Below, piece after piece: positions 9,749-52,662 of a DNA stretch of 62,136 bases. Every line of letters starts with the position of its first letter. Within the stretch, counting starts at the first letter, position 1. The DNA lies in the IMG/VR virus record IMGVR_UViG_3300030090_003965, positions 1 to 62,136 of that record. One strand, 5' to 3'. A program made the position numbers and the translations under genes. The notes under the pieces were generated by a model. It saw nothing but the letters and a program-made list of their open reading frames with translations, did no database searches and was not told where the DNA came from. The DNA comes from a virus. Lineage: Duplodnaviria > Caudoviricetes.

Positions 9749-11509
9749 TCAAACGGTAAAAACCTCTAACGGGTCCTTTTTTCCTTTCACTTCTATGGGT
9801 TCCAACGACTTTAACACAAAAGAACATTTTTTTGCAGTAGAAGACCCAACTAATATCTCCTTTCCTACCTGTTTGGTGGATGATTCCAGTCTGGCTGCGG
9901 TATTTACGGGGTCTCCGATCGCAGAATAGTCGAACCTAGAAGCGGAACCCATGTTCCCTATCACTGCTTTTCCTGAATTAACCCCCACCCCGATAGCAAC
10001 AGGTACAGGTAAGACTTCGTTAAGGACTTTTATCTTTTCCTGTATTTCAATTGCGGCCTTTATAGCAGCGTCTTCGTGATCAGGTAGGTCTAGTGGGGCC
10101 GAAAAAATTGCCATACAGGCGTCACCAATGAACTTATCTACCATGCCCCCGTGTTTTTGTATGGTTTCTACCTGTACAGACAAAGTTTTGTTCATTATTT
10201 CGGTAACTTCCTCCGGAGACAGCTTTTCCGACATAGAAGTAAACCCCCTCAGATCAGTGAACAAAAAGGTTGCGTAGCGGGTTTCACCACCTAGGGTCAA
10301 CAGGTCGGGGTTATCTTGCAAGCGTTTTATTTGTCTTGGGTCTAAGTAGTGTTCAAACTGTTTTTTAATCTGCTGGCGTAGTAAATACTGTTCCCTAAAG
10401 TTAAACCAGAACTGTTCCCCAGATAGTAACAATAAACAAATAGCGGGCCAAGTAACATCAACTAATTGATTTTGTTGAATAAGATAGACTCCTAGGCCAT
10501 ATACTCCCGCTAACATTCCTCCTACACTTACAGCAGACCAAGTTACATTACATCTTTGTAGAAGAGTTATTGTAATTGTACATACCAATAAAAGAAGCCC
10601 TAATTCATACAATAACCGGTTTGCAGGAATACTAGGACTGTTTGGTAGCAATAAGCTCTCTGCCAAAGCAGCTTGTATGTAGTGGGGATTTAACAAACCC
10701 GCAGGGGTAGCCAACTGTGGCATTATTCCTGCAGCACTTGTTCCCACAAAAACAAACTTACCTTCTACCTGTGGGTCTTGGTACGAAACCGTAGGGGTAT
10801 CCACCCAAGAGACCCACTTTCGGCCAAACCTATCTGTAGGAATTACCCCAAGTGCCGGTATTCTAAGGCTTTCAATACCTCCTTCATTAGTTCGTATTTG
10901 GTACGTTCCCTCCCCCGTAAGAGCTTTTAATACTTGTGTGGCAAAAGAAGCAACCCAACCGTCAGGAGCTCGAGAAATAAGGGGAATTTGCCTTATAAGG
11001 TTATCTACATCAGTAGGAGCAGAAACAGCCCCCTGTAAAGCAACCTCAGTTAGTTGCTCTATGTTTAAAATAAACCCCTTTGCAGGGCTATAGTTAACAG
11101 GATCTTCGCCAAGAATAACAGTTCCATGTGGTGGAGGATATTCCGCATTAGCAAACTCAGGCATAGCTAATACATTTATCCCCTGAGTTAGGCTTGTGGC
11201 AAAATCTTCATCTCCACCAAAACGGTCCGGTTGAGGAAATAAAACCACCCAACCCACCCCCAGAGCACCTCGATCCATAAGCTCATTTTGTAAAGTAGCT
11301 AAGGTTTGACGGGGGAAAGGCCAACCTCCTTCTCTTGCTATATCTTCTTCAGTTATATCAAGAACTACAAAATGCCCAGATGGAGTGGGTTGAGTAATAA
11401 ACGCATCAAATGTTTTAAGTCGCAACACCTCTAATGCAGACCAGTTTAACAACAAAGGCAAAGCTAAAGCTACAACGGTGAGTAGTCCGACTTTTGTACC
11501 TAGTTTCAA
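9749..11509 (-). CDS. CHASE2-domain class III adenylate cyclase
   Basis: N-terminal TM, CHASE2 (GGWPFPR, DVDNLIR), 3 TM helices, cyclase motifs FTDLRGFT, DKFIGDA, DYSAIGDPVNTAARLE. Confidence 0.92.
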   Translation of the reverse strand: MKLGTKVGLLTVVALALPLLLNWSALEVLRLKTFDAFITQPTPSGHFVVLDITEEDIAREGGWPFPRQTLATLQNELMDRGALGVGWVVLFPQPDRFGGDEDFATSLTQGINVLAMPEFANAEYPPPHGTVILGEDPVNYSPAKGFILNIEQLTEVALQGAVSAPTDVDNLIRQIPLISRAPDGWVASFATQVLKALTGEGTYQIRTNEGGIESLRIPALGVIPTDRFGRKWVSWVDTPTVSYQDPQVEGKFVFVGTSAAGIMPQLATPAGLLNPHYIQAALAESLLLPNSPSIPANRLLYELGLLLLVCTITITLLQRCNVTWSAVSVGGMLAGVYGLGVYLIQQNQLVDVTWPAICLLLLSGEQFWFNFREQYLLRQQIKKQFEHYLDPRQIKRLQDNPDLLTLGGETRYATFLFTDLRGFTSMSEKLSPEEVTEIMNKTLSVQVETIQKHGGMVDKFIGDACMAIFSAPLDLPDHEDAAIKAAIEIQEKIKVLNEVLPVPVAIGVGVNSGKAVIGNMGSASRFDYSAIGDPVNTAARLESSTKQVGKEILVGSSTAKKCSFVLKSLEPIEVKGKKDPLEVFTV

Positions 11510-11572
11510 GGTTTTAGCACTTCCATCTTTTTCTTGCTTGCCATAGATTTTTCTTTTTTCTTAGCCATTTTT

Positions 11573-12370
11573 CTAATCAAATTGGTTAATTGTTACGGTT
11601 TTGTTACAGCTTGAAGTGCAGTTAAATACCGCTGTGTAAGATTTGGCACTTACTCCATTTTGAGTTGCATTTACGGTGTAGTTTCCCTGTTCTACTCGTA
11701 TGTTCCCAACGTGTGCGCCGTCACCTGATTGCGTCAGGTTAACCGTTGAGTTATCGGCAGGGTTGTTTTTGAACTCAATGTCGCCATCCTTTGCGCCGCT
11801 ACCTGATTGCGTAATCGTAGCATCATTATTATTGCAGTTGTTGCAAGATTTAATATAGGCGTTGTGGCTTCCAGAACCAGATTGAGTAATTGTCCACGTA
11901 CTGTCATCTCCAAAGGCGTACATCTTTGCATAATGGTCTCCGGTACCTGTTTGGGATACCTTATAGATGTTGTCATCGCCAGACATATAAATTTCGCCAT
12001 ACATATCGTCACCGGTTTGGGTAACGGTCATCTCATTTGAGTCCTGATCCGCGTCAATATACCCTGTGTTGTCGTTTCCAGTCTGTGTAATCTTATATTC
12101 ATTCCCTGTATGGTTTGTGTACTGGCTATAGGTTTTAGCTAAATTATCGTCACCATTCTGGTCAATATCGATGGTAGCACTACTACAGGTATGCGTTGTG
12201 TATGTTCCATTTGATAGCCCACACCAGACACGCGCCGTATTGCCGGTTCCTATTTGTTCAATATAAATGTTGGTGTTTGTCCCTTTAGTATCTATCTCTA
12301 CGGAATTATCCGCTGCAAAAACAGGCAAACTAAGGAGACTGAACAATAGTAATCGCACTTTCACCTCCAC
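11573..12370 (-). CDS. Curlin-repeat secreted protein (CsgA/CsgB-like)
   Basis: Signal peptide (LLLFSLLSLPVFA) followed by N-x-A/I-x-I-x-Q-x-G repeats. Confidence 0.75.
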   Translation of the reverse strand: MEVKVRLLLFSLLSLPVFAADNSVEIDTKGTNTNIYIEQIGTGNTARVWCGLSNGTYTTHTCSSATIDIDQNGDDNLAKTYSQYTNHTGNEYKITQTGNDNTGYIDADQDSNEMTVTQTGDDMYGEIYMSGDDNIYKVSQTGTGDHYAKMYAFGDDSTWTITQSGSGSHNAYIKSCNNCNNNDATITQSGSGAKDGDIEFKNNPADNSTVNLTQSGDGAHVGNIRVEQGNYTVNATQNGVSAKSYTAVFNCTSSCNKTVTINQFD

Positions 12371-13415
12371 CGTTTACTACCACACCTATTTTTACACCCG
12401 CGGTCAGAATGTCTACGTTGTAGGCCCCACTTTTTTCTAGCTCTAAGTCTACAGTGTTTTCCACTTGGCGAAACAACGTAAGTCTTTCGCCCTCTACAAA
12501 AGAATAAATCTGTAGCTGGGGGTCAAATCCCGGAGTAATTCCTACTAACTCTACTCCGTCTAACTCCGCACCTTTTTCTTCTTTAGCCGCAGCACTTACC
12601 TCTATTACGTCTAACAGATCAGTTAGGAAGTCCACATCTAAAAAGTCCACATCTAATCTACCTATTTCATCTTCTAACTCATCTTTATCCAATTCGTTTT
12701 CATCTAGTTCGGTTTCTTCCAATAGATCTACGTCTAGTATGTTATTGGGACTACTGGCTTGTTCCTCTACGGCTTGTTGAATTTCGTCTGGAGGGTTAAC
12801 AATAAGCAAATTATCTATAAAACCCAGTGTCATGCCCTGTAATAAAACAGGTGGGGTAGGTGGTGTCTCCGACACACTAACCATAGTAGCTTGAAACGGT
12901 TCATTCATCACCACTACACCTGCTTGCGTTGTTACGGTTATTTCCCCACTAGAAGCCCCCGTGGCGTCTGGGAGAAGAATCACCAAACTGCGACCAATTT
13001 CATCCACCGTAGTGGTGAAGTCTGTCCCACGAATGGCAATAGTAGCGGTAGGAGTACGGATACTAATGTTCTCACGGTTAATACGTCCCAATGCGCCTGT
13101 CAAAAAGCGGGCTGTACCACTAGCCATGTTAAGAGCTAAACGGCTTTGAGACGGATCGGGGTCAAAAATGTATTCGTCTATTACAACACTGGAACGCTCG
13201 GTTAGTCGTACTACGCTATCGTCAAGAAACTGAATAGCTAAACGCCCGTTCCCAGTACGTACGTTATCCATACTGGCAATACCCAGTTGTAACTCAGCTG
13301 CTAGGGAATCATCCGTGTTCTGACGTAAGACCTCGCCAATTCCTCTCAATTCAGAAATAGACCCAACTTGGGCACTTGCCACAAAGGGCAAAAAAACTAG
13401 CAACCAGAAGTACAT
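12330..13415 (-). CDS. FecR-domain protein
   Basis: Signal peptide; D.VRTG...IQFLDDS.VRL, IRTPTATIAIRGTDF; acidic linker. Confidence 0.85.
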   Translation of the reverse strand: MYFWLLVFLPFVASAQVGSISELRGIGEVLRQNTDDSLAAELQLGIASMDNVRTGNGRLAIQFLDDSVVRLTERSSVVIDEYIFDPDPSQSRLALNMASGTARFLTGALGRINRENISIRTPTATIAIRGTDFTTTVDEIGRSLVILLPDATGASSGEITVTTQAGVVVMNEPFQATMVSVSETPPTPPVLLQGMTLGFIDNLLIVNPPDEIQQAVEEQASSPNNILDVDLLEETELDENELDKDELEDEIGRLDVDFLDVDFLTDLLDVIEVSAAAKEEKGAELDGVELVGITPGFDPQLQIYSFVEGERLTLFRQVENTVDLELEKSGAYNVDILTAGVKIGVVVNGGGESAITIVQSP

Positions 13416-14116
13416 TGATCTACATCAATAACACCATTAGTCGTAATAGCTACTATGTCTAAAATGTTTTTAACCGAACCCCCAGTACTGCTTTGGTCTA
13501 CGTCGATGTTATTACCATTACCCGTTATATTTGCTTTAATGGAATGGTCGGCATTGTTTACTTGAGTGGTGTCGATATCGTTTGAATCCCCGTCCACGGT
13601 CCAGTCGTTTACACAACCCACAACGTTACAAGTTACGTTGATGTTGTTTGAAGTCCCTGTAACACTAAAGTCTGCGTTCGCAGCGGTCGCTGTTGCAGTA
13701 TTACCTTGTGTGTAAACAAGCACGTTACTATCACCGGTAGCTTCAAAATCAAAATCTGTGTTTTGTACATCACCTGTAGCACCTAAAGCCAGAGTTTGAG
13801 TATTGCTGTCACCAGTAGACTTTAAAGTAAAATTAGCTGAATTAGCTTGTGCCGCCGTCATCGCAATAGTGTTGCTGTCACCTATCTGATCTACATCAGC
13901 CGTAATGGATGTACCCGATAAGCTCACCCTAGCACTACTGGTACCAACAACGTTGCTCGACCCAATCTGGTCTATACTAAGCGTGAGGGCGGTGCTACCG
14001 CCGCCAGCTTGAGTTAAGTAAATATCGTTGTTGGCCGCAAGAACAGACACACAATAGGCCAATGAATATAATAAAAACGCATAAACTAAACAAGATTTAA
14101 TCATTAGAGATCGCAT
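13397..14116 (-). CDS. Curlin-like repeat secreted protein
   Basis: Signal peptide; Q-x-G-x-S-N repeats (DQIGSSN, DQIGDSN, TGDSN, GTSNN). Confidence 0.7.
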   Translation of the reverse strand: MRSLMIKSCLVYAFLLYSLAYCVSVLAANNDIYLTQAGGGSTALTLSIDQIGSSNVVGTSSARVSLSGTSITADVDQIGDSNTIAMTAAQANSANFTLKSTGDSNTQTLALGATGDVQNTDFDFEATGDSNVLVYTQGNTATATAANADFSVTGTSNNINVTCNVVGCVNDWTVDGDSNDIDTTQVNNADHSIKANITGNGNNIDVDQSSTGGSVKNILDIVAITTNGVIDVDQCTSGC

Positions 14117-14117
14117 T

Positions 14118-14978
14118 TTACCTCTCCTCCGGAGACTGATAGTCCCACAAATCTCTTTCTATCCCCTGCATTATAAGCTCATAAACAGCAGCTTCTATAG
14201 CGGACCTTACAGCATACCCCGCTGTCTCGTTAACTGCCACCCCTGTTTCTAGTTCTACGAGTTCTACACCGTTTTCGGTAAATCTAAAAGTGTCTATTCC
14301 CGTAGAAGCACTAAAAATAGTTTTACTAGCTAATACATTTAACAAAACCTCTCCGGTTTGTACCAACACCGCCCTAAGCGAAACCGTGACTTGGTCTCGT
14401 CGGTGTTGCCTAGAGGTACCAATACCTAAGTAACGTGCTCCAACGCCGCCGGTAAATGTATTTGTTGAGTAGGAAATAATTCCTCCTTCCATTAGCAAAC
14501 CAGCAAATAAAAGAGGTTTTAACTGGTTATCGCCTTCGCCATCGTAAGTACTACGGGTAGATATAATTAGTTGACGTTCTCTGGTTAAATGGTCTAACAT
14601 GCCTCGTTCTGCCACGGTAAACCACGTTCCACCACCCGCGTTTTGTAGAGCTTCGATTAAAAAGCTATCTGCTCCCTGAGTTACCGCTGTGCTGAACAGG
14701 GCCATGTTATCAGCCGACTTACGCTGACCGGTTAAGTCTAAAAAGCTATAAACAGCCACCACTGCCTTGCGGGCAGGAGCGGAAAGTTCCACTAAGTCTT
14801 GTAAAGTGGGACGGTCAATACGGGGGCCTTCTGGGCAACGGGTATTGGCTACATCAGCGGGGTCTGCAATACGCGAAGTACTATTACGACACGCTTCAAT
14901 AGGGCCAACTGCCACACAGCCACAAGTGGCAAAAGCCAGAAAACATACAATTAGATACCGCACTCGTCTGTGGAGCAA
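14118..14978 (-). CDS. csgG: Curli secretion channel CsgG-like lipoprotein
   Basis: Lipobox-like Cys; AVYSFLDLTGQRK, STAVTQGA, WF.VAER..L..L..ERQLI, GARYLGIG, D.VTVSLRAV...TGEVL. Confidence 0.92.
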   Translation of the reverse strand: MLHRRVRYLIVCFLAFATCGCVAVGPIEACRNSTSRIADPADVANTRCPEGPRIDRPTLQDLVELSAPARKAVVAVYSFLDLTGQRKSADNMALFSTAVTQGADSFLIEALQNAGGGTWFTVAERGMLDHLTRERQLIISTRSTYDGEGDNQLKPLLFAGLLMEGGIISYSTNTFTGGVGARYLGIGTSRQHRRDQVTVSLRAVLVQTGEVLLNVLASKTIFSASTGIDTFRFTENGVELVELETGVAVNETAGYAVRSAIEAAVYELIMQGIERDLWDYQSPEER

Positions 14979-19438: not shown

Positions 19439-20902
19439 CTAATAATACACGCGTTGTCGGGGTGGGGTATCGTGGGGTTCGTAGTCTTCGGGGTGGCCAA
19501 TAAAGCCGCCTTCTCTAAAACGGCGCAGGGCTTGGGCAACGGTGTCGAGGTAATCGTCGTGTTCTCCAGCCGGAAACGCCGCACACTCCTCTATGACCTC
19601 TTCGGCCCATAGGGTGTCGGGTGCGTACACCATACCGCTCTCAAACATAGGGGCAACACTGTTTACGCGGCTTATTTTGTCATTACCGCGGCTGGGCGTG
19701 TAGTTAGTAACCGGTATACCCATGCGGCGTAACTCCTGCGTAAGGGGCATACCACTGGCTTTGGCTTCTATGAGAACGGTTTCGGGTTCCCAGTAGTTGT
19801 ATTCCTCCATGGTAATGCGGCGCAGTTCGGGAAAGTCCCAGCGGCCACGGCGGGCGTCACACAGTATAAGGGCAGCAGGCTTGCCTTTTTCGGGGTAAAA
19901 AACACCCCATGTGGTTATTGCGCTGTAGTCGGCTTGTTCCTTTTTGCTAAAGGCGGTGTCGTAGCTTTGCATTACGTAATGCAGGTGGGGGAGCTCCTTA
20001 TCGGGCCACTTTTGCCACCAGTCGCGCTTGAGTATTGCGCTGGTTTCGCTGGTGGGGGACTGCTGCCACTGGGCCTCCCATTTGCTTACGCTCAAACTGG
20101 CACGTACGGCTATTAGGTCTTCCTTAGACCAGTACTCAGGCCATAGGGGGTTTTCGGTCTCGGGCATAAGGGCAGGGAATTCCACTACCTCCCATTTATC
20201 GGCCAAGGGGTCACGGGCCATCTGGCGTATTACCTTGCCGGTTAAGTCGTTTTCGGCCCAGCGGGTCATCACTACTACTATGGCTCCTCCGGGTTGCAGG
20301 CGTTGGCGCGGGCCACTGGTGTACCATTCGTAGGCGTGTTCAAGGGCAGTAGTGCTTAGGGCGTCTTGCTCGCTGTGGGGGTCATCGATAATGAGTAAGT
20401 CTGCGCCACGGCCCGTTACCGCACCACCCGTGCCAGCAGCAAAGTATTCACCGCCCTTGGTGGTTTCCCAACGGCCTGCGGCTTGGCTGTCGGCGCGGAG
20501 CTGCACCCCCTGAAACACCTGCATATACTCCTGCGAGTTCATTAAATTACGCACCTTGCGGCCAAAACGGTAAGCTAATTCAGCGGTGTGGGTGGTCTGC
20601 ATAATCTTAAGCGTAGGGCGGCGGCCCATTAACCACGCAGGCAACAGGTAACTGGCAAATTCACTCTTAGTATGGCGCGGGGCCATATTAACTATAAGGC
20701 GCTTAATGTCGCCGTTAGCAACGGCTTCGAACTTCTGGGCCATAATGCCATGGTGCCTGCCCGCAATAAACTCAGGCCACATAGCACGTACAAAATGGGA
20801 AAAATTCTCGCGGCAAGTATCGGCATGTTCCAAAGCCTGCGCACGGCTCAATAACCTAGCGTAGCTCTTAAGGGTTTCTTCTGGGGTAGACTCTAAGGAC
20901 AT
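19439..20902 (-). CDS. terL: Terminase large subunit
   Basis: Walker A NMAPRHTKS, Walker B LLIIDDP, coupling motif MTRW, nuclease SYDTA / IEAKASG / HDDYLD. Confidence 0.95.
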   Translation of the reverse strand: MSLESTPEETLKSYARLLSRAQALEHADTCRENFSHFVRAMWPEFIAGRHHGIMAQKFEAVANGDIKRLIVNMAPRHTKSEFASYLLPAWLMGRRPTLKIMQTTHTAELAYRFGRKVRNLMNSQEYMQVFQGVQLRADSQAAGRWETTKGGEYFAAGTGGAVTGRGADLLIIDDPHSEQDALSTTALEHAYEWYTSGPRQRLQPGGAIVVVMTRWAENDLTGKVIRQMARDPLADKWEVVEFPALMPETENPLWPEYWSKEDLIAVRASLSVSKWEAQWQQSPTSETSAILKRDWWQKWPDKELPHLHYVMQSYDTAFSKKEQADYSAITTWGVFYPEKGKPAALILCDARRGRWDFPELRRITMEEYNYWEPETVLIEAKASGMPLTQELRRMGIPVTNYTPSRGNDKISRVNSVAPMFESGMVYAPDTLWAEEVIEECAAFPAGEHDDYLDTVAQALRRFREGGFIGHPEDYEPHDTPPRQRVYY

Positions 20903-21203
20903 TTAATAAACAGCAATTTTATAAATTTTTCCACCACCGCAAAAAAGGTACTCGCTCCGCACAATGTATTAACAAGCATTTCATGTGTTTACAATTAAAG
21001 TTAAATAAAAGAAACAACGGAGCAAGCACCAAGCAACAGTGTACACAAATAATAAGTCGTGGGGCAAGGAACAATAATCAAGGACTCCTGTAAGGAGCTT
21101 TATAAAAAATGCCCTAGGATTTTTAGCAAAAACAGTGTTTACATGCTGAGCATATAAACACCGTCTCCGCAAGCGGGGGTCACGGGCTTAAATGCGCACA
21201 CAT

Positions 21204-21240
21204 AAAAAAGCCCGCGCTAGGCTAGGTACCTAGCGCGGGC
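21204..21240 (-). terminator. Rho-independent terminator
   Basis: 12-bp stem GCCCGCGCTAGG / CCTAGCGCGGGC plus T6 on the minus strand, 16 bp after the stop at 21257. Confidence 0.85.
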
Positions 21241-21256
21241 CAGTTTGCGCTAGTTT

Positions 21257-21883
21257 TTAACTAGCTGTTGCGCTGCCCTTAACAGCAAGTTTAATTACTG
21301 GCTTTGGTGTAGCACTTGGCGTAATGCTAAATTTTTTGTTGCATGGGCTACCACCACCATTAAGCGCGGCCACTAACACGCAAGGGTTAGTAGTTACCCC
21401 AGTGCATAACCGTATTAGGCTAAAGTATGCCTGTAGGCAGTACACGGGCTGGGTTGCTGGTGTGTGTTTGTATGCCCCACCATGCCGCGCACTGCTACTA
21501 GCCAACACCATTTGCTGTTGTTTTATGTTGGCGTAGCCGTGGCCTACAATACTGTTAACGGCAGTTTGCCAGCTAGGATGTATGCCATACAACAACCAGT
21601 TTAGTTGCGTAGGCCGTACCCCGTTGGGCTTGCCCTTGTAACCGTAGGCTAGTACTTTTTGCCCCGCGCTTGGTGCGTTAGCTATTGCTGCTTTGCCAGC
21701 TGTGGTTAGCTGCCAAGTAACATTGGCTGGCCCACCAACACTGGCAACCCAAGCTGTAATGGCTTGCGCTTTTACCCATTTATGCGGTTGGTTGCCTGTA
21801 CCCAGTACTAGCTGCGGTATTGCTATAGTTGGCGCGTTTACTGTTGCGCTACCTGTAGCGGTTTTACGTTTTGCTTTTTGCAT
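21257..21883 (-). CDS. Basic 208-aa hypothetical protein with no Asp or Glu; paralogue of 23045..23506
   Basis: Likely start is ATG 21883 behind an AAAGGGT SD; it has its own promoter and terminator; motif-level similarity to 23045..23506 supports a real gene. Confidence 0.75.
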   Translation of the reverse strand: MQKAKRKTATGSATVNAPTIAIPQLVLGTGNQPHKWVKAQAITAWVASVGGPANVTWQLTTAGKAAIANAPSAGQKVLAYGYKGKPNGVRPTQLNWLLYGIHPSWQTAVNSIVGHGYANIKQQQMVLASSSARHGGAYKHTPATQPVYCLQAYFSLIRLCTGVTTNPCVLVAALNGGGSPCNKKFSITPSATPKPVIKLAVKGSATAS

Positions 21884-21959
21884 TTGTTTACCCTTTATAT
21901 GGTTAAGTGTTTTGGCTTTATTGCCATGTGGCCAGCCAGCATTGGCGACCACATAAGTA

Positions 21960-21987
21960 ATTATACTTACCTATACAGTATTTACAA
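21960..21987 (-). promoter_or_regulatory. Sigma70-like promoter TTGTAA-N16-TATAAT
   Basis: Reverse complement reads ttgtaa atactgtataggtaag tataat, upstream of the Asp/Glu-free gene. Confidence 0.65.
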
Positions 21988-22130
21988 GTACTTATACAAC
22001 TATTATGTAATGTTGTATTTACAGCTATTATTGTACGCACGGACGCGAATGGATATGAGTAGAATTGATATGATGTGATGATGCATACCACACGCACATC
22101 TCTCTCTTCTAGTTAAATCTAGGTAAATAG

Positions 22131-22329
22131 TTTAGCTTAATCCTATGATAAATGGCTCACTCTTCCTCGTCTGCGACGGTGACGGTGATGTTGCTGAAGC
22201 GCACGAAAACGCCTCCCTCACCGTCGTCGTCGAGCAATTCCTCGAAGTCTACGTCGGTTTCCAGAACCATTTCGCATAGGCGGTTGAAAAACTCGTCGCG
22301 GTTCATTTTAGCTTAATCCTATGATAAAT
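22131..22329. repeat. 23-bp perfect direct repeat TTTAGCTTAATCCTATGATAAAT at 22131-22153 and 22307-22329
   Basis: Read directly; the copies flank the 49-aa acidic ORF. Confidence 0.9.
22157..22306 (-). CDS. 49-aa very acidic protein (MNRDEFFNRLCEMVLETDVDFEELLDDDGEGGVFVRFSNITVTVADEEE)
   Basis: Below the ORF-track cutoff; AGGA SD lies inside the upstream repeat; 16 of 49 residues are D or E. Confidence 0.7.
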   Translation of the reverse strand: MNRDEFFNRLCEMVLETDVDFEELLDDDGEGGVFVRFSNITVTVADEEE

Positions 22330-22404
22330 AGAATATAAACTAAACAGACCAATGCAATCTGCATTGTGATAACTGTTGGTGTTAGTTTCATATGGAATAA
22401 CCAA

Positions 22405-22821
22405 TTAGCAGTAAAAGGGGCGGGTTTCGGGGTAGTTTTTACCTTCGTGTGGCTGGACACACGTTCTTAATGAGCTATGGCCCCATGCGCCGCCGAGCAA
22501 CAGGTAGTTGTCATCTCCGTACCCATCAGGATCGACTCCGTCATGCGGACCATGCCCCATCTTGTATGGGGTGCTGCGCTTGGCTTGCTCTTGCTCTTGC
22601 TTCCAGCGAGTCCACCATTTAAGAGCATCCTCCTCCCGAGTGAACGGGCCAGCCAGACAATGTATAAATTCACCCCTGTCAAACCACCAACCTCCTTCCT
22701 CTGGTCCCCCGTAACAACGGGATACCTCATATTGATTTACAAAATACTTGCCCTTAGTCCCTTCGTCTTCTCCTTGGGGAACATTTGCATAAGGGTTTTG
22801 CGAACTACTGGAACTAGCCAT
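22405..22821 (-). CDS. Conserved hypothetical phage early protein
   Basis: AAAGGAG SD; YGGPEEGGWW and C-terminal YP..RPFYC motifs. Confidence 0.7.
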   Translation of the reverse strand: MASSSSSQNPYANVPQGEDEGTKGKYFVNQYEVSRCYGGPEEGGWWFDRGEFIHCLAGPFTREEDALKWWTRWKQEQEQAKRSTPYKMGHGPHDGVDPDGYGDDNYLLLGGAWGHSSLRTCVQPHEGKNYPETRPFYC

Positions 22822-22864
22822 AACGTACTCCTTTATGTGAATAATTATTAACTACTACCCTTAT

Positions 22865-22893
22865 AGTGTAAAGTCCTTACATAGGACTGGCAA
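22865..22893 (-). promoter_or_regulatory. Sigma70 promoter TTGCCA-N17-TACACT with spacer palindrome GTCCT-N5-AGGAC
   Basis: Read directly; member of a repeated family. Confidence 0.75.
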
Positions 22894-22991
22894 CCCCCTA
22901 AGTAGTCAACTCCATTCATTTCTATTCATAGTTATAGGTAGTATAGACGGGCGTGTTCGTCTCAAGTCTGGGTTAATCTCTCTCAGTAAAT

Positions 22992-23024
22992 AAAAAAGAG
23001 CCAGCGGATACACGACCCGCTGGC
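22992..23024 (-). terminator. Rho-independent terminator
   Basis: GCCAGCGG / CCGCTGGC stem followed by TCTTTTTT on the minus strand, after the stop at 23045. Confidence 0.75.
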
Positions 23025-23044
23025 CCAGTGGCGGCATTCAGTAA

Positions 23045-23506
23045 TTAGTTGTTTTTAGCAACCGATAACTGAACCCAAGGCCCTTGCAGCCAAGCCTTGG
23101 CACTAGGACTATACCCACCATTCAACAGTGCAATGGTGCAAATCATAGTCTGTGCGCTGTGGCCGTCCACCTTACGCATGGCAGCAAGAATGTTGCCAAG
23201 GCGACGGTCGCCCGTTTTGCCATGCCCCTGCTTTAGACCAAACAGGTGGAAGTCATGGTACATGGCCCTTACGCCTCCGGCCCTGCTGTACCCGAACGGG
23301 GTAGGCTTTTGGTCCTTAAGGCGGCAGTTTTCCAACGGCGTTACGACCACGTTGTTAAGCTGCCCGTCCGCGTGTTGAGCTATCCAGTCATGTACCTGCT
23401 TGGCCGTGACTTCTACACCCTTTACAACAGGAAACACCAGAGCTTTGCCCGTGGTCTTTTTAACCACTTTCTTAGCTGTGGATTTTTTACGTACTGCGCT
23501 TTTCAT
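23045..23506 (-). CDS. Basic hypothetical protein, paralogue of 21257..21883
   Basis: AAAGGAG SD, own promoter and terminator; Lys-rich N-terminus; ALLNGGYSP. Confidence 0.75.
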   Translation of the reverse strand: MKSAVRKKSTAKKVVKKTTGKALVFPVVKGVEVTAKQVHDWIAQHADGQLNNVVVTPLENCRLKDQKPTPFGYSRAGGVRAMYHDFHLFGLKQGHGKTGDRRLGNILAAMRKVDGHSAQTMICTIALLNGGYSPSAKAWLQGPWVQLSVAKNN

Positions 23507-23567
23507 ACAATACTCCTTTCTGTGAGTATGGTTACTGTGACTAGTCCAATACCAGCCACTTACCCAT

Positions 23568-23596
23568 AGTATATGCTCCTTAGCTAGGAACTACAA
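23568..23596 (-). promoter_or_regulatory. Sigma70 promoter TTGTAG-N17-TATACT with spacer palindrome TCCT-N5-AGGA
   Basis: Read directly. Confidence 0.75.
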
Positions 23597-23735
23597 GTAC
23601 TATTTAATCATCTTCTTTTATCCTCTTTCCGGGGACTAGAAACGAAAAGACTTGAACCGAAGACAAAGGAGGATTGATGATTATTGACGAGGAAAGGAAG
23701 ACTTGAACCATGCACCGTGGTACAAGGCCAACGGC

Positions 23736-24188
23736 TCAAGGTGTTTCTCTCTCCCTAGGTAAATCTTGTCCTCTCCTTATAGAAGAAAGAAGATGATTGA
23801 GGAACCCTGCCCAATCAAAAGGACTTCCCGAAGACCAGACTGGGGTAAAAGGGGCTTTTTCAGTGGTTAATCCAGCAAGGCCCATGACCTGTTCTCCTGA
23901 AAATAAATTGATAGTCCTCTCTGGGGGATGTCCAACCAAGTTCCAAACGAGTCCCCCATGACTAAAATACTGTGTTTGCCAAGAGATTTGATGTGGTCGG
24001 AACTTTACTGACTTAAGTGTCTTTAATCTGTGAACCTTTAGTTCTAACCAAAAAGGTGTACCGTCTAACAGGCCGTGTAAGTCGGGTACTCCCGGAGCAG
24101 CCCACGACTCTATACGTGTCCACAACACCTGTTCTTTAGTCCCGTCACGTAGCTGTTTCCAAAGCCTGCTTTCCGGTTTACTGGGCAT
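23736..24188 (-). CDS. PD-(D/E)XK nuclease (VRR-NUC / Holliday junction resolvase-like)
   Basis: E..LW, GVPDL, FWLELK, RPHQISW motifs. Confidence 0.8.
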   Translation of the reverse strand: MPSKPESRLWKQLRDGTKEQVLWTRIESWAAPGVPDLHGLLDGTPFWLELKVHRLKTLKSVKFRPHQISWQTQYFSHGGLVWNLVGHPPERTINLFSGEQVMGLAGLTTEKAPFTPVWSSGSPFDWAGFLNHLLSSIRRGQDLPRERETP

Positions 24189-24730
24189 TACTGTTCTACG
24201 GTTTCTACCTCGGTTACGTCTATTACATTGCCCGCACTCACGGCAGCTAGTCCGGGGAATTCCTCTTGGAGGCGGTGTATTTCAGCCATTACTTGCTCGC
24301 GTGACATCTGGTCTATTTTACCGTGCAGTATTTCCTTACGGTCTATGTACAGGCCAGCAGCCTGACCACGGTACTTTTCAGCTGACACAGCGGCAGAAAA
24401 ATTGTTGTTATCAATGGCGGTGTCACGTAGTTCAGCTAGTTTTTGTACGTGGTTTTCAAATGTAACCTCGTATTTTTTAGCCAACTCGCTTTTGACTTCC
24501 CTTACACGGGCTACCACATGGGGATAGTCCCTGCCGTTTAACAATTGACTAGCTATGGCATGGGCACTGGCAGGACTGTAGCCAGCGCGGACTGCGGCTT
24601 CGGTTTGGGTCACATCCTCGCTGCTGTATATACGGCAGAACTCCTCTTGCTTGGGTGTTATCTGCTTTTCGGTACGAGGGTTTGCTACAACGTCTAGTTT
24701 GGGTTTATGAGTTTGTTTTGACTTAGGCAT
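24188..24730 (-). CDS. terS: Terminase small subunit
   Basis: TPKQEEFC..Y....TQTEAAVRAGYS...A...ASQLL HTH; SAAVSAE..RG.AAGLY. Confidence 0.85.
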   Translation of the reverse strand: MPKSKQTHKPKLDVVANPRTEKQITPKQEEFCRIYSSEDVTQTEAAVRAGYSPASAHAIASQLLNGRDYPHVVARVREVKSELAKKYEVTFENHVQKLAELRDTAIDNNNFSAAVSAEKYRGQAAGLYIDRKEILHGKIDQMSREQVMAEIHRLQEEFPGLAAVSAGNVIDVTEVETVEQ

Positions 24731-37519: not shown

Positions 37520-37833
37520 AAAAGTAACTCAGACTCAACAAGTAATAAATATCTACGTAAATCTCTAATGTCGTCTATTATACCTTCTTCTGTCTCATCG
37601 TCTGCTTGGTCTTTTAAGGTTCTAAATATATCGTAAGAGTCCCCGCCTTCCTGTGCTTGAAACGTTACTTGGTTTTCTATTCTGTCCCACTTACGGGCCA
37701 GCATCATAAAGGCCCCTACACCGCCCCGTTTTTTCCAACTATTACCGTAGTATTCTTCGGCTTTAGTTAAAGCCTTTTGGTCCTCTTCGAGAATACTGGG
37801 CAGCAGGTATAGGTTACTGTTTGGGTGTGACAT
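37501..37833 (-). CDS. Nucleotide-modification-associated alpha-helical protein (Nmad1/DUF1599, MazG-like)
   Basis: K...YG.SW..RG..G.F....RK.DR...D...DL..Y..L; coupled to the thymidylate synthase-like gene. Confidence 0.7.
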   Translation of the reverse strand: MSHPNSNLYLLPSILEEDQKALTKAEEYYGNSWKKRGGVGAFMMLARKWDRIENQVTFQAQEGGDSYDIFRTLKDQADDETEEGIIDDIRDLRRYLLLVESELLLWKNHT

Positions 37834-38894
37834 TATGGTTTCTCCGCATCAAATTGAACGCCGCCTCTTCTGCTGAGCCATTCGTGCAGGGCTATGGCCC
37901 AGTCTTCCGCTTGAATGCACTGTGCTGTAAAGTCGGCTTGGTAAGTGTTTTTGCCTTTTTCTTTATATAGTTTCCATGCTCTGAGCATTTTTATGGCCAC
38001 ATGGGGGAAAAAGGAATTTTTCCAGTGTGGTTTTAGCCACTTTTCTCTTGTGGGGTCGTACACTGCTCCCACGCTGTCTACACCAAAAAACTGTTCCAGT
38101 TCTTGGTCAAAGGAATTTATGTCATCTACTAAGGGCCTTGGTTGTATTAAACGGCTGCCGTAGGCGTCGTAGTCGGGTTGCATGTTTTCTAGCTTTTTAA
38201 GTGGTTCCAAGTACGCGTGGAAGTTATTGCTAAACTGGGTATAAATACCTACTTTAGTTCCTGTTTTTGCTGCCATATACTCTTGCAATACCGACATGTG
38301 AACGGCATTTGCCCCCAGTGCTCCCCAGATCATATCGTTGCTGCGGTTAACAACAGTCATGTCTAAGTGTTCACCCCTTTTTTGAAAGTAAATCTGTGTG
38401 TTACAGGGATAGTCTTTACCATCGTTTGTTTGTACTAAGTCTTCAGTTGCATCCCACATGGAAACCACGGTGCGTCGGTCGTTTTTGTAGGTAAGCAACC
38501 GGTGAACGGCGTGTTCAAGCTGGTCTTTGCCAAACCAGTATCGCCAGCGGTGGCCATACGCCCCATGAAAGGTTTTGCCATCGTCGCTGTAAGTGTTTAT
38601 TCTGCCGTTAAACTGGCTAATCCAGTCTACGTCGTTACGGCCTTGCAGCATCCATAACGACTCCATTAGGTGAAACACAGGGTTAGCGTCCCGTTGGGGG
38701 TAAAACAGTACTCTTTCGCAAGGGTTGTTATACGTAATAGCTACGGGGGTGTCGAACTCTAGGGCAGGCCCATTACGGGTTTGTATAGTTGTGCCTTCCT
38801 CTTCTAGGGCAGTCTTACACAGGTATAAGGCCTCGCTAACGTTGCGCACGGTAAAGGTTCTTACTCCTTTTAGCCTAGGGGAATCATAGGTCAC
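37833..38894 (-). CDS. Thymidylate synthase-family enzyme, probably dUMP hydroxymethylase
   Basis: GAYG.RWR, RR.V..MWD, catalytic PCN, NRSNDMIWG...AN (RSND plus Asn at the dUMP-specificity position), NFHAY. Confidence 0.85.
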   Translation of the reverse strand: MTYDSPRLKGVRTFTVRNVSEALYLCKTALEEEGTTIQTRNGPALEFDTPVAITYNNPCERVLFYPQRDANPVFHLMESLWMLQGRNDVDWISQFNGRINTYSDDGKTFHGAYGHRWRYWFGKDQLEHAVHRLLTYKNDRRTVVSMWDATEDLVQTNDGKDYPCNTQIYFQKRGEHLDMTVVNRSNDMIWGALGANAVHMSVLQEYMAAKTGTKVGIYTQFSNNFHAYLEPLKKLENMQPDYDAYGSRLIQPRPLVDDINSFDQELEQFFGVDSVGAVYDPTREKWLKPHWKNSFFPHVAIKMLRAWKLYKEKGKNTYQADFTAQCIQAEDWAIALHEWLSRRGGVQFDAEKP

Positions 38895-39823
38895 GGTACG
38901 GCTCCAATAACAGAGGGTTGATCACGAAACACCGGATGTGTAAAGCCATCAAACTTTGACCGAGGCTTGCCTTGGCCTTGGCGTACTCGTTCGTATTTAT
39001 CCCATTCGCACAGGCTGTGCTCTATAGTACGCATGTCTATTTGTTTAACGGGGCATTTTCCCTTGCAGTAAAAAGTTGCTGCATACATAAGTTCTTGCAT
39101 TTCCTGATTAGCCTGTACGTCTTTTATTGATTTTTTTAATGGTCTGTTCTGTAAGCGGTTAAGACCACGCTTGGCTCCGGGACCGGCATTGGCCCAAGAA
39201 AATCTGTCCTGTGCGTGTTGCAACACAGGGGTGTAGTTAAGGTCGGTAACTACTTCGTAGGCCATAAAACCTCCACCACCCCATCCGGTAAAGGTACCCA
39301 GAACTTTGTGTAGGCTCTGTAAACTGTTAGAGATTTTTGCCACTTGTTCCAGAGAATCACGGGCCTCCCAAATGGGGGTTAAAAAGTAATCAGAAACTAC
39401 TTCCGATTTCTTTAGCTTTAGCCCCTGATTAGTAACAATGTAGGCTCCCGTAAAGGTAGGCCGCTTGTTTTGCAAACGGGTTTCTATTACAGCCTTGGTA
39501 TAGGCGGGATTCCAGTTTGTTACCCAACCGTGTTCTTCGGCAAAACCGGAAGTCCCCACACACCTAAACAAGCAGCAGTTAAAGATAATTTCTCCCCATG
39601 GACGGTCTTTGTTAGGTTCTGTCCAGTTTTTCCGCATCCATACGGTTACTCTGTCGTTTTCTCTAAAGGGGTTAGTAAACTTGTATTCCTGTAGTATGGG
39701 GTCTTGAGTCCATGGGGCAGCTTGTCCTGAGGCTCTTCGTTGATAAATGGCGTGTCGTTCGTTTATCCAGCCAAAAAACCTTTCTACGGCTTCGGGGTTA
39801 GCGTGAGCTGTACGGTGCCAGAT
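38891..39823 (-). CDS. aGPT-Pplase1 (PF18723-type) thymidine hypermodification enzyme
   Basis: The frame extends 62 codons above the track's ATG and there contains ERH.IY..R....PWT.DPIL.EYKFTN.FRE.DR; the body has GF.AYE...DL, GPGA.RGL, IEH.LCE.DKY.R. Confidence 0.8.
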   Translation of the reverse strand: MWHRTAHANPEAVERFFGWINERHAIYQRRASGQAAPWTQDPILQEYKFTNPFRENDRVTVWMRKNWTEPNKDRPWGEIIFNCCLFRCVGTSGFAEEHGWVTNWNPAYTKAVIETRLQNKRPTFTGAYIVTNQGLKLKKSEVVSDYFLTPIWEARDSLEQVAKISNSLQSLHKVLGTFTGWGGGGFMAYEVVTDLNYTPVLQHAQDRFSWANAGPGAKRGLNRLQNRPLKKSIKDVQANQEMQELMYAATFYCKGKCPVKQIDMRTIEHSLCEWDKYERVRQGQGKPRSKFDGFTHPVFRDQPSVIGAVP

Positions 39824-52659: not shown

Positions 52660-52662
52660 GGT

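What the first reader, a model, noticed from the sequence alone, without database searches (positions are those of the whole stretch)
21257..23506. Asp/Glu-free 208-aa protein has an ordinary paralogue 1.2 kb away
Seen: 21257..21883 has no D or E (all GAN codons are excluded). It aligns by eye with 23045..23506: VKAQAITAWVA / VTAKQVHDWIA, AYGYKGKPNGVR / PFGYSRAGGVR, WLLYG / FHLFG, VAALNGGGSP / IALLNGGYSP, VIKLAVK / WVQLSVAK. Each is a stand-alone promoter-gene-terminator unit with a Lys-rich N-terminus. Inference: one copy has been reshaped at amino-acid level to fit the DNA constraint, making it a candidate first-expressed anti-defence, DNA-binding or host-takeover protein.
Basis: partly seen in the sequence, partly recalled or inferred. 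Interest (0 to 1): 0.82.

Follow-up and report, generated by a model that had tools for sequence, protein, structure and literature searches.

The report
Phage gene recoded to avoid GA/TC
An uncultured marine phage keeps one small gene, from promoter to terminator, free of the DNA step GA/TC, which costs its protein every aspartate and glutamate, while a normal sister copy sits 1.2 kb away; many related phages keep the same pair, so something in the infected cell must read or mark that two-letter step.

Summary
ORF 21257-21883 (-) encodes 208 aa with no Asp or Glu. This follows from a DNA-level purge. An 861-bp island (21181-22041) covers the promoter, ribosome-binding site, coding sequence and terminator. 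It holds 2 GA/TC steps where about 80 are expected, and no other dinucleotide is depleted.

The protein is a true distant paralogue of ORF 23045-23506 (hhalign 98.8 %, E 1e-16). The same tandem, an ordinary copy followed by an acid-poor copy directly upstream of terL, occurs in 57 of 86 related marine viral loci. The downstream copy is the more acid-poor one in 55 of those 57.

The cassette is under purifying selection as a protein (dN/dS 0.17-0.31). It is also a local divergence hot spot, and none of the 111 substitutions against one relative created a GA/TC step.

The only DNA-modification genes I recognised are a thymidylate-synthase homologue and a 5-hmdU DNA-kinase-family protein. The best reading (about 0.5) is that thymidine hypermodification acts at TC and this unit stays unmodified. 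That is not shown: phage M6 and Pam3 carry the pathway without islands.

The protein's function is unknown. It is basic, has a new fold and shows weak winged-helix likeness.

This scan has noted GA/TC-free cassettes in at least seven other phage genomes.

The parts
21181..22041 (.). GA/TC-free island: 861 bp with 2 exceptions (GA on the + strand at 21577 and 21947). On the coding (-) strand GA is absent throughout 21181-22098.
   Evidence: GA/TC occurs at 1.2 per kb in the island against 47.0 per kb in the rest of the window (ratio 0.02). The other nine dinucleotide classes have ratios of 0.91-1.74. G+C is 47.5 %.
21257..21883 (-). ORF208, the Asp/Glu-free downstream paralogue (FAM2). It is 208 aa with 16 K, 4 R and 5 H.
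   Evidence: Homologues at 54-98 % identity are also D/E-free. dN/dS is 0.17-0.31. The AF2 model has pLDDT 79.9 and pTM 0.80.
21960..21987 (-). Sigma-70-like promoter TTGTAA-N16-TATAAT. Its -35 hexamer avoids the GA of the consensus TTGACA.
   Evidence: Promoters of the same type (TTGTAA, TTGCAA or TTTACA, N16-17) lie 44-77 nt before the start codon in many D/E-free copies.
21891..21896 (-). Shine-Dalgarno-like AAAGGG without GA. The ordinary copies use AAAGGAG.
21200..21241 (-). Intrinsic terminator: 14-pair stem (10 G-C pairs) followed by a T run.
23045..23506 (-). ORF153, the ordinary upstream paralogue (FAM1). It is 153 aa with 6 D and 2 E, and its DNA holds 16 GA and 14 TC.
   Evidence: The family comparison is hhalign 98.8 %. 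The AF2 model has pLDDT 88.8 and pTM 0.82.
22998..23026 (-). Terminator after ORF153 (12-pair stem followed by a T run).
22405..22821 (-). ORF138, an unknown protein between the two paralogues. It is present in only some lineages.
   Evidence: (phrog_7302, E 1.5e-9).
22131..22329 (.). Indel cassette: ORF49 (22157-22306, acidic, 49 aa) flanked by exact 23-nt direct repeats (22131-22153 and 22307-22329).
   Evidence: A 176-bp deletion joint, 22130>22307, is seen in contigs of runs X4 and X6. ORF49 gave no match in L002 or L005.
19439..20902 (-). Terminase large subunit. It lies directly downstream of the island in the window and in the related loci.
23736..24730 (-). Conserved upstream neighbours: a nuclease-like ORF150 (23736-24188) and the terminase small subunit (24188-24730).
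37833..39637 (-). Thymidine-modification genes: a thymidylate-synthase homologue (37833-38894) and a 5-hmdU DNA-kinase helical-domain protein (38891-39637).
   Evidence: PF00303, 7e-21; PF18723, 4.5e-26. (36 % identity, E 7e-26, to phage M6 DNA). (the TS homologue scores far below the equivalog cut-offs).

Best explanation
ORF208 is a real protein-coding gene. It is the downstream member of an old tandem pair of paralogues that sits between terS and terL in a large group of uncultured marine podovirus-like phages (SU10-type portal and adaptor, HTVC023P-type-like).

Shown: its whole transcription unit, from about 55 bp upstream of the -35 box to about 25 bp past the terminator, has been purged of the dinucleotide step 5'-GA-3'/5'-TC-3' on both strands. 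The -35 box, the ribosome-binding site and every codon were rewritten to fit. The loss of all Asp and Glu is the protein-level price.

Inferred: these phages make 5-hydroxymethyl-dU DNA and hypermodify it after replication through a 5-hmdU DNA-kinase pathway. In characterised relatives this pathway acts in dinucleotide contexts, TG or TC. If TC is the context here, the cassette is the one stretch of the genome that can never carry the bulky base.

Further inferred: this lets the unit be bound and transcribed by unaltered host RNA polymerase, or stay intact under modification-dependent attack, whatever the modification state of the rest of the genome. The ordinary copy would then serve when the DNA is in the other state.

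The protein itself is a small, very basic protein with a Lys-rich tail on a compact domain of unrecognised fold. It is most likely a nucleic-acid binder, and it evolves fast.
For: Shown by calls:
- The purge is specific to GA/TC and is at the DNA level.
- Selection for it is continuing. The 85 %-identical homologue in L002/L005 lies in an 875-bp stretch with no GA or TC at all. 111 substitutions separate that island from the window's, although 33 % of all possible single changes in the island would create GA or TC. A metagenome variant, 21578 A>G, removes the single exception inside the gene.
- The pattern is general. 57 of 86 loci hold both copies. The downstream copy has fewer D/E in 55 of 57, has none in 26 of 57, and has neither GA nor TC in 19 of 57. 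At 90 % non-redundancy, 15 of 29 types have no D/E.
- The island always spans the ORF plus roughly 70-160 bp upstream and 65-160 bp downstream.
- Signals are rewritten: TTGTAA, TTGCAA or TTTACA in place of TTGACA, and AAGGGG or AAGGT in place of AAGGAG.
- The gene is coding: dN/dS 0.17-0.31, and 50 of the 91 substitutions within the CDS fall at third codon positions.
- A thymidylate-synthase homologue and a PF18723 protein are present. PF18723 is also present in 3 of 3 complete relatives searched.
- No TGT/DpdA, QueC, N6/N4, D12 or C5 methyltransferase family was found in the genome.
- GA/TC is under-represented genome-wide (symmetric odds ratio 0.74). At codon junctions the observed/expected ratio is 0.66 for TC and 0.56 for GA.

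From papers, passages read:
- Resistant restriction sites in M6, ViI and phiW-14 DNA point to modified T in TG or TC. The authors attribute this to the kinase (PMC6449724).
- 5-hmdU is converted 'in sequence-specific contexts' (PMC8989533).
- A phage thymine dioxygenase strongly prefers NTC (PMC13229309).
- Hypermodification genes are reported in this phage group, and their closest relatives are M6/PaMx11-like (PMC9599517).
- Bulky major-groove groups block bacterial RNA polymerases, probably at initiation (PMC4838386, abstract only).
Against: - No modification has been measured for this phage or any relative, and TC specificity is inferred only from the purge.
- Phage M6 has an experimentally hypermodified genome and Pam3 carries the same gene set. 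Neither has a dinucleotide-free island of any class. Their longest GA/TC-free gaps are 51 and 41 bp, within random expectation.
- One complete relative (G002, locus L033) has PF18723, but both of its copies are ordinary and its longest GA/TC-free gap is 58 bp.
- In M6-type phages TG was implicated as well as TC, yet TG/CA is not depleted in the island (ratio 1.24).
- Genome-wide avoidance of GA/TC is not what one expects for the target of a purely beneficial self-modification.
- Hypermodified phages such as M6 are transcribed by their hosts (my recollection, no call). A total transcription block on modified DNA is therefore unlikely.
- The timing of expression is unknown.
Confidence: 0.5

Rival explanations
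1. GA/TC is the target of a harmful DNA-acting activity that has nothing to do with the phage's own modification. Candidates are a host or rival-phage nuclease, nickase or TC-specific cytosine deaminase. The cassette encodes a product needed so early, or so critically, that it must contain no target at all. The rest of the genome is only partly purged.
For: - GA/TC is depleted genome-wide, as in classical target avoidance: odds ratio 0.74, the lowest of the ten classes in this genome. At codon positions 2-3 and at codon junctions the observed/expected ratio is 0.36-0.76.
- Hypermodifying phages M6 and Pam3 have no island.
- Relative G002 has the kinase-family gene but no island.
- The cassette evolves fast, as arms-race genes do.
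- TC-preferring DNA enzymes exist. One example that I read is the NTC-preferring phage dioxygenase (PMC13229309). TC-preferring deaminases and T4 endonuclease IV are recalled only, from no call.
Against: - 5,760 GA/TC steps remain in the genome, so the activity cannot be lethal at each site.
- I know of no dinucleotide-specific defence nuclease.
- No such gene was recognised in the window.
- This rival does not explain why phages with purged cassettes carry thymidine-modification genes. That link rests partly on this scan's earlier, unchecked notes.
Confidence: 0.2
2. The island is primarily a cis-acting DNA element next to terL, such as a packaging start, a replication origin or a transcription-primed origin. 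It must stay free of modified bases or of GA/TC-binding proteins, and the gene inside it merely had to adapt.
For: - The acid-poor copy lies immediately upstream of terL in every locus that reaches terL.
- The island extends beyond the coding sequence on both sides.
- The divergent tract between the window and L005 coincides with the island.
Against: - The island's limits track a promoter and a terminator, not a fixed distance from terL.
- No conserved non-coding sequence block was seen. The island is the most divergent DNA of the region (77-93 % identity against 98.5-100 % in the flanks), which is unlike a recognition site.
- The protein is under purifying selection.
Confidence: 0.08
3. The constraint acts on the mRNA. 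The transcript must contain neither GA nor UC in order to escape a sequence-specific endoribonuclease, such as a toxin or a defence RNase.
For: - The purge matches a transcription unit.
- On the coding strand GA is absent without exception over 918 bp (21181-22098).
- Coding-strand TC is depleted genome-wide, most strongly at codon positions 2-3 (0.36).
Against: - Both orientations are purged equally. In L002 an 875-bp stretch lacks both GA and TC, which a single-strand reader does not require.
- The island reaches about 55 bp upstream of the -35 box and past the terminator T run, so it includes untranscribed DNA.
- The -35 hexamer itself is rewritten.
Confidence: 0.06
4. Selection acts on the protein. 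An acid-free, extremely basic protein is needed, for example a histone-like DNA condenser, and the DNA pattern is a side effect.
For: - The protein carries 20 K+R and no acidic residue.
- Acid-free relatives are conserved down to 51 % identity and beyond.
Against: - Removing D/E codons leaves an expected 16 GA and 21 TC in the gene. The observed counts are 0 and 1, and 0 of 20,000 resamplings matched.
- The non-coding flanks, the promoter and the ribosome-binding site are purged too.
- In partly relaxed lineages GA occurs only, or almost only, in D/E codons, and TC stays at 0. L018, L024, L035 and L038 are examples.
Confidence: 0.03

Closest known systems
Context-dependent thymidine hypermodification from 5-hmdU (Pseudomonas phage M6, Salmonella phage ViI, Delftia phage phiW-14; PMC5889632, PMC8989533, PMC6449724)
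   Same: - A thymidylate-synthase homologue sits next to a PF18723 / aGPT-Pplase1-type protein near the DNA polymerase gene.
- The PF18723 protein is 36 % identical to M6 DNA in translation.
- In those phages only part of the thymidines are modified, and TG or TC contexts were inferred.
   Different: - No chemistry is known for this phage.
- Only TC/GA is purged here, not TG/CA.
- M6 itself has no dinucleotide-free island. An exempt gene cassette is not mentioned in the passages I read (term searches and one abstract, not whole papers).
Restriction-site and short-motif avoidance in phage genomes, including site-poor leading ends with a first-expressed anti-restriction gene (T7 gene 0.3/ocr; recalled, no call)
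   Same: - A sequence word is removed by selection because a DNA-acting enzyme reads it.
- The purged stretch holds a self-contained, promoter-proximal small gene.
   Different: - The word is a dinucleotide, so avoiding it rewrites the protein (no Asp or Glu), the -35 box and the ribosome-binding site.
- The purge is confined to one unit of about 0.9 kb, and an unpurged paralogue sits beside it.
- The product is basic, not an acidic DNA mimic.
- Its position relative to the genome ends is unknown.
Vertebrate CpG islands (recalled, analogy only)
   Same: A promoter-linked stretch whose dinucleotide content sets it apart from the genome and determines its DNA-modification state.
   Different: - CpG islands keep the modifiable dinucleotide and are protected from methylation by bound factors. 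Here the modifiable step itself is deleted.
- This is an analogy of logic, not of ancestry or mechanism.
Winged-helix DNA-binding and peptide-recognition (RRE) domains
   Same: The best, though weak, structural matches of both paralogue models fall on such domains: 6ec8_A (Z 5.0, rmsd 4.0, 95 residues aligned, for ORF153; Z 4.4 for ORF208), and Fur/PerR, MecI/BlaI and MCM, RPA32 and Stn1 winged helices at Z 2-4.
   Different: - Z is below the level at which unrelated models commonly match, according to the tool's own note.
- There was no Foldseek match at E <= 0.001 in PDB or BFVD.
- There was no sequence match in PDB, Pfam, PHROGs or NCBIfam.

Membership tests
5-hmdU-derived thymidine hypermodification system (M6 / ViI / phiW-14 type) | A thymidylate-synthase-family enzyme that could make 5-hm-dUMP | tested here: met
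   ORF 37833-38894 matches PF00303 at E 7.1e-21. Its NCBIfam thymidylate-synthase scores lie far below the equivalog cut-offs (87 against 174.55 bits), so it is a divergent member. Hydroxymethylase activity itself cannot be tested here.
5-hmdU-derived thymidine hypermodification system (M6 / ViI / phiW-14 type) | A 5-hmdU DNA kinase or aGPT-Pplase1-type protein | tested here: met
   ORF 38891-39637 matches PF18723 at E 4.5e-26, above the cut-off. tblastn gives 36 % identity and E 7e-26 to phage M6. The family is present in 3 of 3 complete relatives searched.
5-hmdU-derived thymidine hypermodification system (M6 / ViI / phiW-14 type) | A hypermodified thymidine is present in virion DNA | not testable with these tools
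   Only assembled contigs of public runs were available. There was no native-DNA signal and no chemistry.
5-hmdU-derived thymidine hypermodification system (M6 / ViI / phiW-14 type) | The modification is confined to a dinucleotide context that includes TC | not testable with these tools
   This is inferred only from the purge and from the TG/TC inference for M6, ViI and phiW-14 (PMC6449724).
Motif avoidance under selection | The word is far rarer than composition and coding predict, and stays absent through divergence | tested here: met
   and 19 of 57 downstream copies with no GA and no TC.
Motif avoidance under selection | An enzyme that reads the word has been identified | not tested
   No candidate beyond the kinase-family protein was recognised.
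7-deazaguanine DNA modification (DpdA type; GA context in phage CAjan, which I saw only as a search listing and otherwise recall) | A DpdA/TGT-family transglycosylase and preQ0 synthesis genes in the phage | tested here: not met
   PF01702 and PF06508 gave no match in the 97 %-complete genome, while the controls rang in 14 of 14 genomes.
Acidic DNA-mimic anti-restriction proteins (Ocr, ArdA; features recalled) | A strongly acidic surface that mimics DNA phosphate | tested here: not met
   0 D/E and 20 K+R.
Winged-helix DNA-binding domain | A significant fold match over a whole domain | tested here: inconclusive
   The best Z is 5.0 for ORF153 and 4.4 for ORF208, with many winged-helix rows at Z 2-4. 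Foldseek found nothing at E <= 0.001.

The most novel reading that the evidence does not exclude
These phages carry a two-isoform switch keyed to their own DNA chemistry. One paralogue is written in a reduced alphabet without GA/TC, so that its promoter, template and terminator can never be hypermodified. It is therefore readable from incoming virion DNA, as a pioneer gene. The ordinary paralogue is readable only from DNA in the other modification state. This would be a sequence-encoded epigenetic exemption in a virus. The purged dinucleotide would also give the otherwise unknown target context of the hypermodification (TC) directly from sequence.
Probability: 0.3. Interest if true: 0.9.

Novelty: new variant of a known kind. 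Interest (0 to 1): 0.8.

Why it matters
- A selective force strong enough to remove two of the twenty amino acids from a conserved protein, in many phage lineages, points to an unrecognised rule of phage-host biology that acts on one dinucleotide.
- If the force is the phage's own thymidine hypermodification, the purged word reveals the modification's target context from sequence alone. That would make the context predictable for thousands of uncultured phages. The 2018 paper stated that the motifs were unknown (PMC5889632).
- The paired copies form a natural experiment on how much chemistry a protein fold can lose.
- The cassette marks a fast-evolving gene of an abundant group of ocean viruses, probably one that matters early in infection. 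It is a concrete target for expression, binding and defence-panel assays.

Tried and rejected
- **Family and fold searches for both paralogues found nothing usable.** Pfam, PHROGs and NCBIfam gave no family. A PDB sequence search with a 54-sequence profile gave nothing at E <= 1. Foldseek on PDB and BFVD gave nothing at E <= 0.001. The ESM Atlas gave no usable hit. VIA-align gave only Z <= 5.
- **Cultured phages.** tblastn of ORF153 and megablast of the region against 50,697 phage records gave no match. HTVC027P shares terL at 60 % identity, but its 13-kb locus has no island: the longest GA/TC-free gap is 65 bp.
- **Expression.** No RNA holder was listed among the 24 runs.
- **Genome ends.** The window has no terminal repeat. 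All four runs laid were contigs, and no place where molecules begin or end was reported. 'First injected' therefore could not be tested.
- **A different purged dinucleotide in lineages whose downstream copy is ordinary.** None was found. GA/TC is still the lowest or second-lowest class there (0.17-0.74), and AT is about 0.5-0.8 in all of them.
- **A gene whose presence tracks the island among the window, G001, G002 and G003.** None was found, and four genomes are too few.
- **Diversity-generating or mutagen-specific hypermutation of the island.** The substitution spectrum is mixed (54 transitions, 57 transversions, no single-base bias). Recombinational exchange of old alleles is the likelier cause.
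- **Rfam.** No family matched at E <= 0.1 in 20500-24000.
- **Tet/JBP dioxygenase.** No match, but the control rang nowhere, so this is uninformative.
- **Literature.** Two full-text searches for a modification-free or dinucleotide-avoiding phage region found nothing relevant. The main text of the paper on this phage group contains none of 'dinucleotide', 'acidic' or 'aspartate'. Supplements were not seen and could bear on gene lists.
- **Complex prediction.** Not run, because I make no binding claim.


Full report
**What the window is**

The window is a whole viral record of 62,136 bp, 97 % complete by CheckV. Nearly all of its genes lie on the minus strand.

It encodes:
- a large terminase about 60 % identical to those of Pelagibacter phages HTVC027P and HTVC023P and of phage 023Pt_psg01;
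- an SU10-type portal and adaptors, and a capsid protein;
- a family-A DNA polymerase, a UvrD-like helicase, an AEP primase and an SNF2 helicase;
- a curli/T8SS block with CsgG, a curlin repeat protein, FecR and a CHASE2-cyclase;
- a thymidylate-synthase homologue directly followed by a 5-hmdU DNA-kinase helical-domain protein, PF18723.

This gene content matches the uncultured HTVC023P-type podoviruses described in PMC9599517. That paper reports both the curli block and 'DNA hypermodification' partner genes whose closest relatives are in M6- and PaMx11-like phages (passages read). The host is not shown. The sequence occurs in contigs of 20 marine or seawater metagenome runs from 12 studies, one of which may be its source.

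**The observation**

ORF 21257-21883 (-) encodes 208 residues without Asp or Glu. With 12.1 % D+E in 32 other genes of the window, the chance of this is 2.5e-12.

The cause lies in the DNA:
- The + strand has no TC for 919 bp (21180-22099). The next longest TC-free run in the window is 187 bp.
- Counting GA and TC together, positions 21181-22041 hold two occurrences, against a genome-wide mean spacing of 10.8 bp. The longest gap elsewhere is 73 bp.
- Inside the island GA/TC stands at 0.02 of its frequency in the rest of the genome. The nine other strand-symmetric dinucleotide classes stand at 0.91-1.74, no GA/TC-free trinucleotide is strongly depleted, and G+C is unchanged at 47.5 %.
- With the protein sequence fixed and synonymous codons redrawn from the genome's usage, the gene should still hold 16.3 +/- 3.5 GA and 20.6 +/- 3.7 TC. 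It holds 0 and 1, and none of 20,000 redraws reached that. All 14 Ser codons are AGY, and no NTC or NGA codon is used.

The regulatory signals are rewritten as well. The promoter is TTGTAA-N16-TATAAT (21987-21960, 10 of 12 matches), so its -35 hexamer lacks the GA of TTGACA. The ribosome-binding site is AAAGGG, where the neighbouring genes use AAAGGAG.

The island begins about 55 bp upstream of the -35 hexamer. It ends about 25 bp past a strong intrinsic terminator at 21241-21209, which has 14 pairs. It therefore corresponds to one complete transcription unit.

**The paralogue**

BLASTP of ORF208 against ORF153 (23045-23506) is marginal: E 0.009, 23 % identity. Each protein has its own family in the metagenomic protein collection. 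The profile-profile comparison of the two families gives 98.8 % probability and E 9.7e-17 over 144 columns.

The shared motifs are PFGY/PYGY..GK..GVR and ALLNGG(Y/G)SP. ORF208 carries extra helices as insertions.

Across 54 aligned members only G72, R80, G130 and G131 (ORF153 numbering) are invariant. No acidic residue is conserved. This explains how a copy could lose all of them, and it argues against acid- or metal-dependent catalysis.

AlphaFold2 models are confident for both proteins: ORF153 pLDDT 88.8, pTM 0.82; ORF208 pLDDT 79.9, pTM 0.80. They share the same core behind a disordered Lys-rich tail.

**How general it is**

I fetched 86 related loci from viral and metagenome collections. 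All 86 hold at least one family member, and 57 hold two full-length members in tandem.

In those 57 loci:

| Property of the downstream copy | Count |
|---|---|
| Fewer D/E than the upstream copy | 55 of 57 |
| No D/E | 26 of 57 |
| At most two D/E | 38 of 57 |
| Three to five D/E | 11 of 57 |
| Six or more D/E | 8 of 57 |
| Neither GA nor TC in the gene | 19 of 57 |

The upstream copies hold 5-15 D/E, 9-31 GA and 14-39 TC.

Collapsed at 90 % identity there are 29 downstream types:

| D/E in the downstream type | Types |
|---|---|
| 0 | 15 |
| 1-2 | 5 |
| 3-5 | 5 |
| 6 or more | 4 |

Islands of 300-875 bp without GA/TC are the longest dinucleotide-free tracts in most of the loci.

Gene order is conserved: terS, a nuclease-like ORF, the ordinary copy, the acid-poor copy, terL, portal. 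The acid-poor copy lies directly before terL wherever terL is reached.

Further acid-free relatives appear in a profile search of 1.8 billion representative proteins. P0023, P0024, P0027 and P0031 have no D/E, and P0026 and P0030 have one D each.

In several partly relaxed lineages GA occurs exactly as often as D/E codons while TC stays at zero. Examples are L018, L024, L035 and L038. This is what a symmetric DNA constraint traded against protein function would produce, because TC can always be avoided synonymously and GA cannot.

A quick FastTree places most upstream copies in one clade, but it pairs the two copies of the L081/L083 lineage with each other. The tree is midpoint-rooted and was not tested further. 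It hints at an old duplication with at least one later duplication or conversion.

**Selection and tempo**

The gene is under purifying selection as a protein. dN/dS is 0.31, 0.17, 0.24 and 0.24 against L002, L006, L011 and L007. Of the 91 substitutions that fall inside the CDS, 50 are at third codon positions.

It is also a divergence hot spot. Against the 64-kb relative that holds L005, the flanking DNA down to 15.4 kb is 98.5-100 % identical per 200-bp bin, while the bins across 22152-21164 are 77.5-93 % identical. ORF153 shows dS of 0 against that relative's sequence (L002, near-identical to L005 here), and ORF208 shows dS of 0.35.

Other close pairs behave alike. For example, L036/L040 have terL 0.993, upstream copy 0.995 and downstream copy 0.918. 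L057/L060 have 0.991, 0.972 and 0.902.

The 111 substitutions between the window's island and L005's have a mixed spectrum, with 54 transitions and 57 transversions. This suggests exchange of old alleles by recombination and not a specific mutagen.

A third (0.331) of all possible single changes in the island would create GA or TC. By my arithmetic about 37 of the 111 should have done so. Yet the L005 island has none and the window has two. A metagenome variant, 21578 A>G, removes the only exception inside the gene.

**What reads GA/TC**

The thymidylate-synthase homologue and the PF18723 protein are the only DNA-modification genes I recognised. I found no TGT/DpdA, QueC, N6/N4, D12 or C5 methyltransferase family. 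The Tet/JBP search was uninformative.

The PF18723 protein is 36 % identical in translation to phage M6 DNA.

From the passages I read:
- Phages of this kind replace T by 5-hmdU and convert it 'in sequence-specific contexts' (PMC8989533).
- The motifs were unknown in 2018 (PMC5889632).
- Restriction-resistance patterns of M6, ViI and phiW-14 DNA point to modified T in TG or TC. The authors ascribe this to the kinase (PMC6449724).
- An unrelated phage thymine dioxygenase strongly prefers NTC (PMC13229309).
- Bulky major-groove substituents block E. coli and B. subtilis RNA polymerase, probably at initiation (PMC4838386, abstract).

The consensus -35 hexamer TTGACA carries a TC on its lower strand, so a TC-directed adduct would sit inside every canonical -35 box. 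This follows directly from the sequence.

My best explanation is therefore that the hypermodification acts at TC, and that this cassette is written so that it can never be modified. The consequences are inferred, not shown. The unit may be readable by unaltered host polymerase from incoming DNA, or it may be spared by enzymes that attack modified sites. The ordinary copy would then serve in the other DNA state.

**Evidence against that reading**

- No modification has been measured.
- M6 and Pam3 carry the pathway but have no dinucleotide-free island of any class.
- Relative G002 has PF18723 but two ordinary copies and no island. Lineages that lost the purge did not purge another dinucleotide instead.
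- TG/CA is not depleted in the island.
- The window's genome as a whole under-represents GA/TC. The odds ratio is 0.74, against 0.90-0.94 in three relatives and 1.21 and 1.34 in M6 and Pam3. At codon junctions the observed/expected ratio is 0.66 for TC and 0.56 for GA, and at codon positions 2-3 it is 0.36 and 0.76. This looks more like avoidance of a harmful target than of a beneficial mark. It keeps alive the rival that an unrelated TC-reading nuclease or deaminase is the agent.

The RNA-level reading and the protein-level reading fit the data poorly, for the reasons given with each rival.

**The protein's function**

Function is unknown. The protein has no family, no significant fold match and no relative in a cultured phage.

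Both models give the same weak list of winged-helix and RRE-type domains. The best is 6ec8_A: Z 5.0, rmsd 4.0, 95 residues aligned for ORF153, and Z 4.4 for ORF208. These values are below the level at which unrelated models commonly match.

Four things make a nucleic-acid-binding role the most likely, at roughly even odds: the Lys-rich tail, the net positive charge, the absence of conserved acidic residues, and the weak winged-helix likeness. The fast turnover would fit a role at the phage-host interface, but that is inference only. The protein is not an acidic DNA mimic.

**Relation to earlier notes of this scan**

After I had formed this reading, look-ups returned eight notes on other genomes. 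They describe GA/TC-free or nearly free cassettes or islands in phages, most of which carry thymidine-modification genes. One of them, e1-5952764, describes a marine phage with a 'recoded twin of a normal gene 1 kb away', which sounds like this family. A sequence look-up with ORF208 found no stored look-alike.

These are unchecked AI notes, and I did not count them as evidence. One of them pointed me to PMC6449724, which I then read myself.

**Verdict**

The proposed function is open.

I could not find the phenomenon in print. Searches found nothing, and term searches in the main texts of PMC5889632, PMC8989533, PMC6449724 and PMC9599517 found no mention of it. Supplements were not seen.

Noticed in passing
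window 22131-22329: A 49-aa, very acidic ORF (22157-22306) lies between exact 23-nt direct repeats. A 176-bp deletion joining the repeats is present in contigs of two metagenome runs, and ORF49 gave no match in relatives L002 and L005. It is a presence/absence polymorphism right at the upstream edge of the island.
   Followed up: partly
window 9749-14978: A curli/T8SS auxiliary block: CsgG (14118-14978), FecR (12330-13415), a curlin-repeat protein (11573-12370) and a CHASE2-adenylate/guanylate cyclase (9749-11509). It matches the block described for HTVC023P-type phages in PMC9599517. It is absent from relatives G001-G003.
   Followed up: partly
window, all genes (32 used): Genome-wide synonymous avoidance of TC on the coding strand. 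TTC/TTT is 85/352, ATC/ATT 73/253 and GTC/GTT 54/249, while C-ending codons are otherwise equal or preferred (AAC/AAT 392/187). GA/TC has the lowest symmetric odds ratio in this genome (0.74), lower than in three relatives (0.90-0.94).
   Followed up: partly
loci L018, L019, L021, L027, L035, L038, L044 and others, 25 nt before the upstream (ordinary) copy; window 23507-23531: The ribosome-binding site of the ordinary copies sits in a short hairpin whose stem arms differ between lineages while staying complementary, for example ACTC/GAGT, GCTC/GAGC and GATGTC/GACATC around GTAGAAAGG. This may be a conserved translational control element. I judged it by eye and did not test it with a covariation tool.
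   Followed up: no
window 45374-46660: A 428-aa ORF with no family in Pfam, PHROGs or NCBIfam. In relatives G001 and G002 its homologue lies next to the PF18723 gene, and it is missing from G003. It is a candidate further component of the modification pathway.
   Followed up: no
window 22152-21164 against L005; other close pairs: The island is the only strongly diverged tract (77-93 % identity) in about 7 kb of otherwise 98.5-100 % identical DNA. The upstream ordinary copy also diverges faster than terL in several pairs. This suggests cassette exchange by recombination between co-circulating phages.
   Followed up: partly
window 48790-55554: Two very large ORFs (1,289 and 963 aa) have no Pfam or PHROG family and are only 21-30 % identical to their counterparts in relatives. 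They sit among virion genes and may be ejection or internal virion proteins.
   Followed up: no
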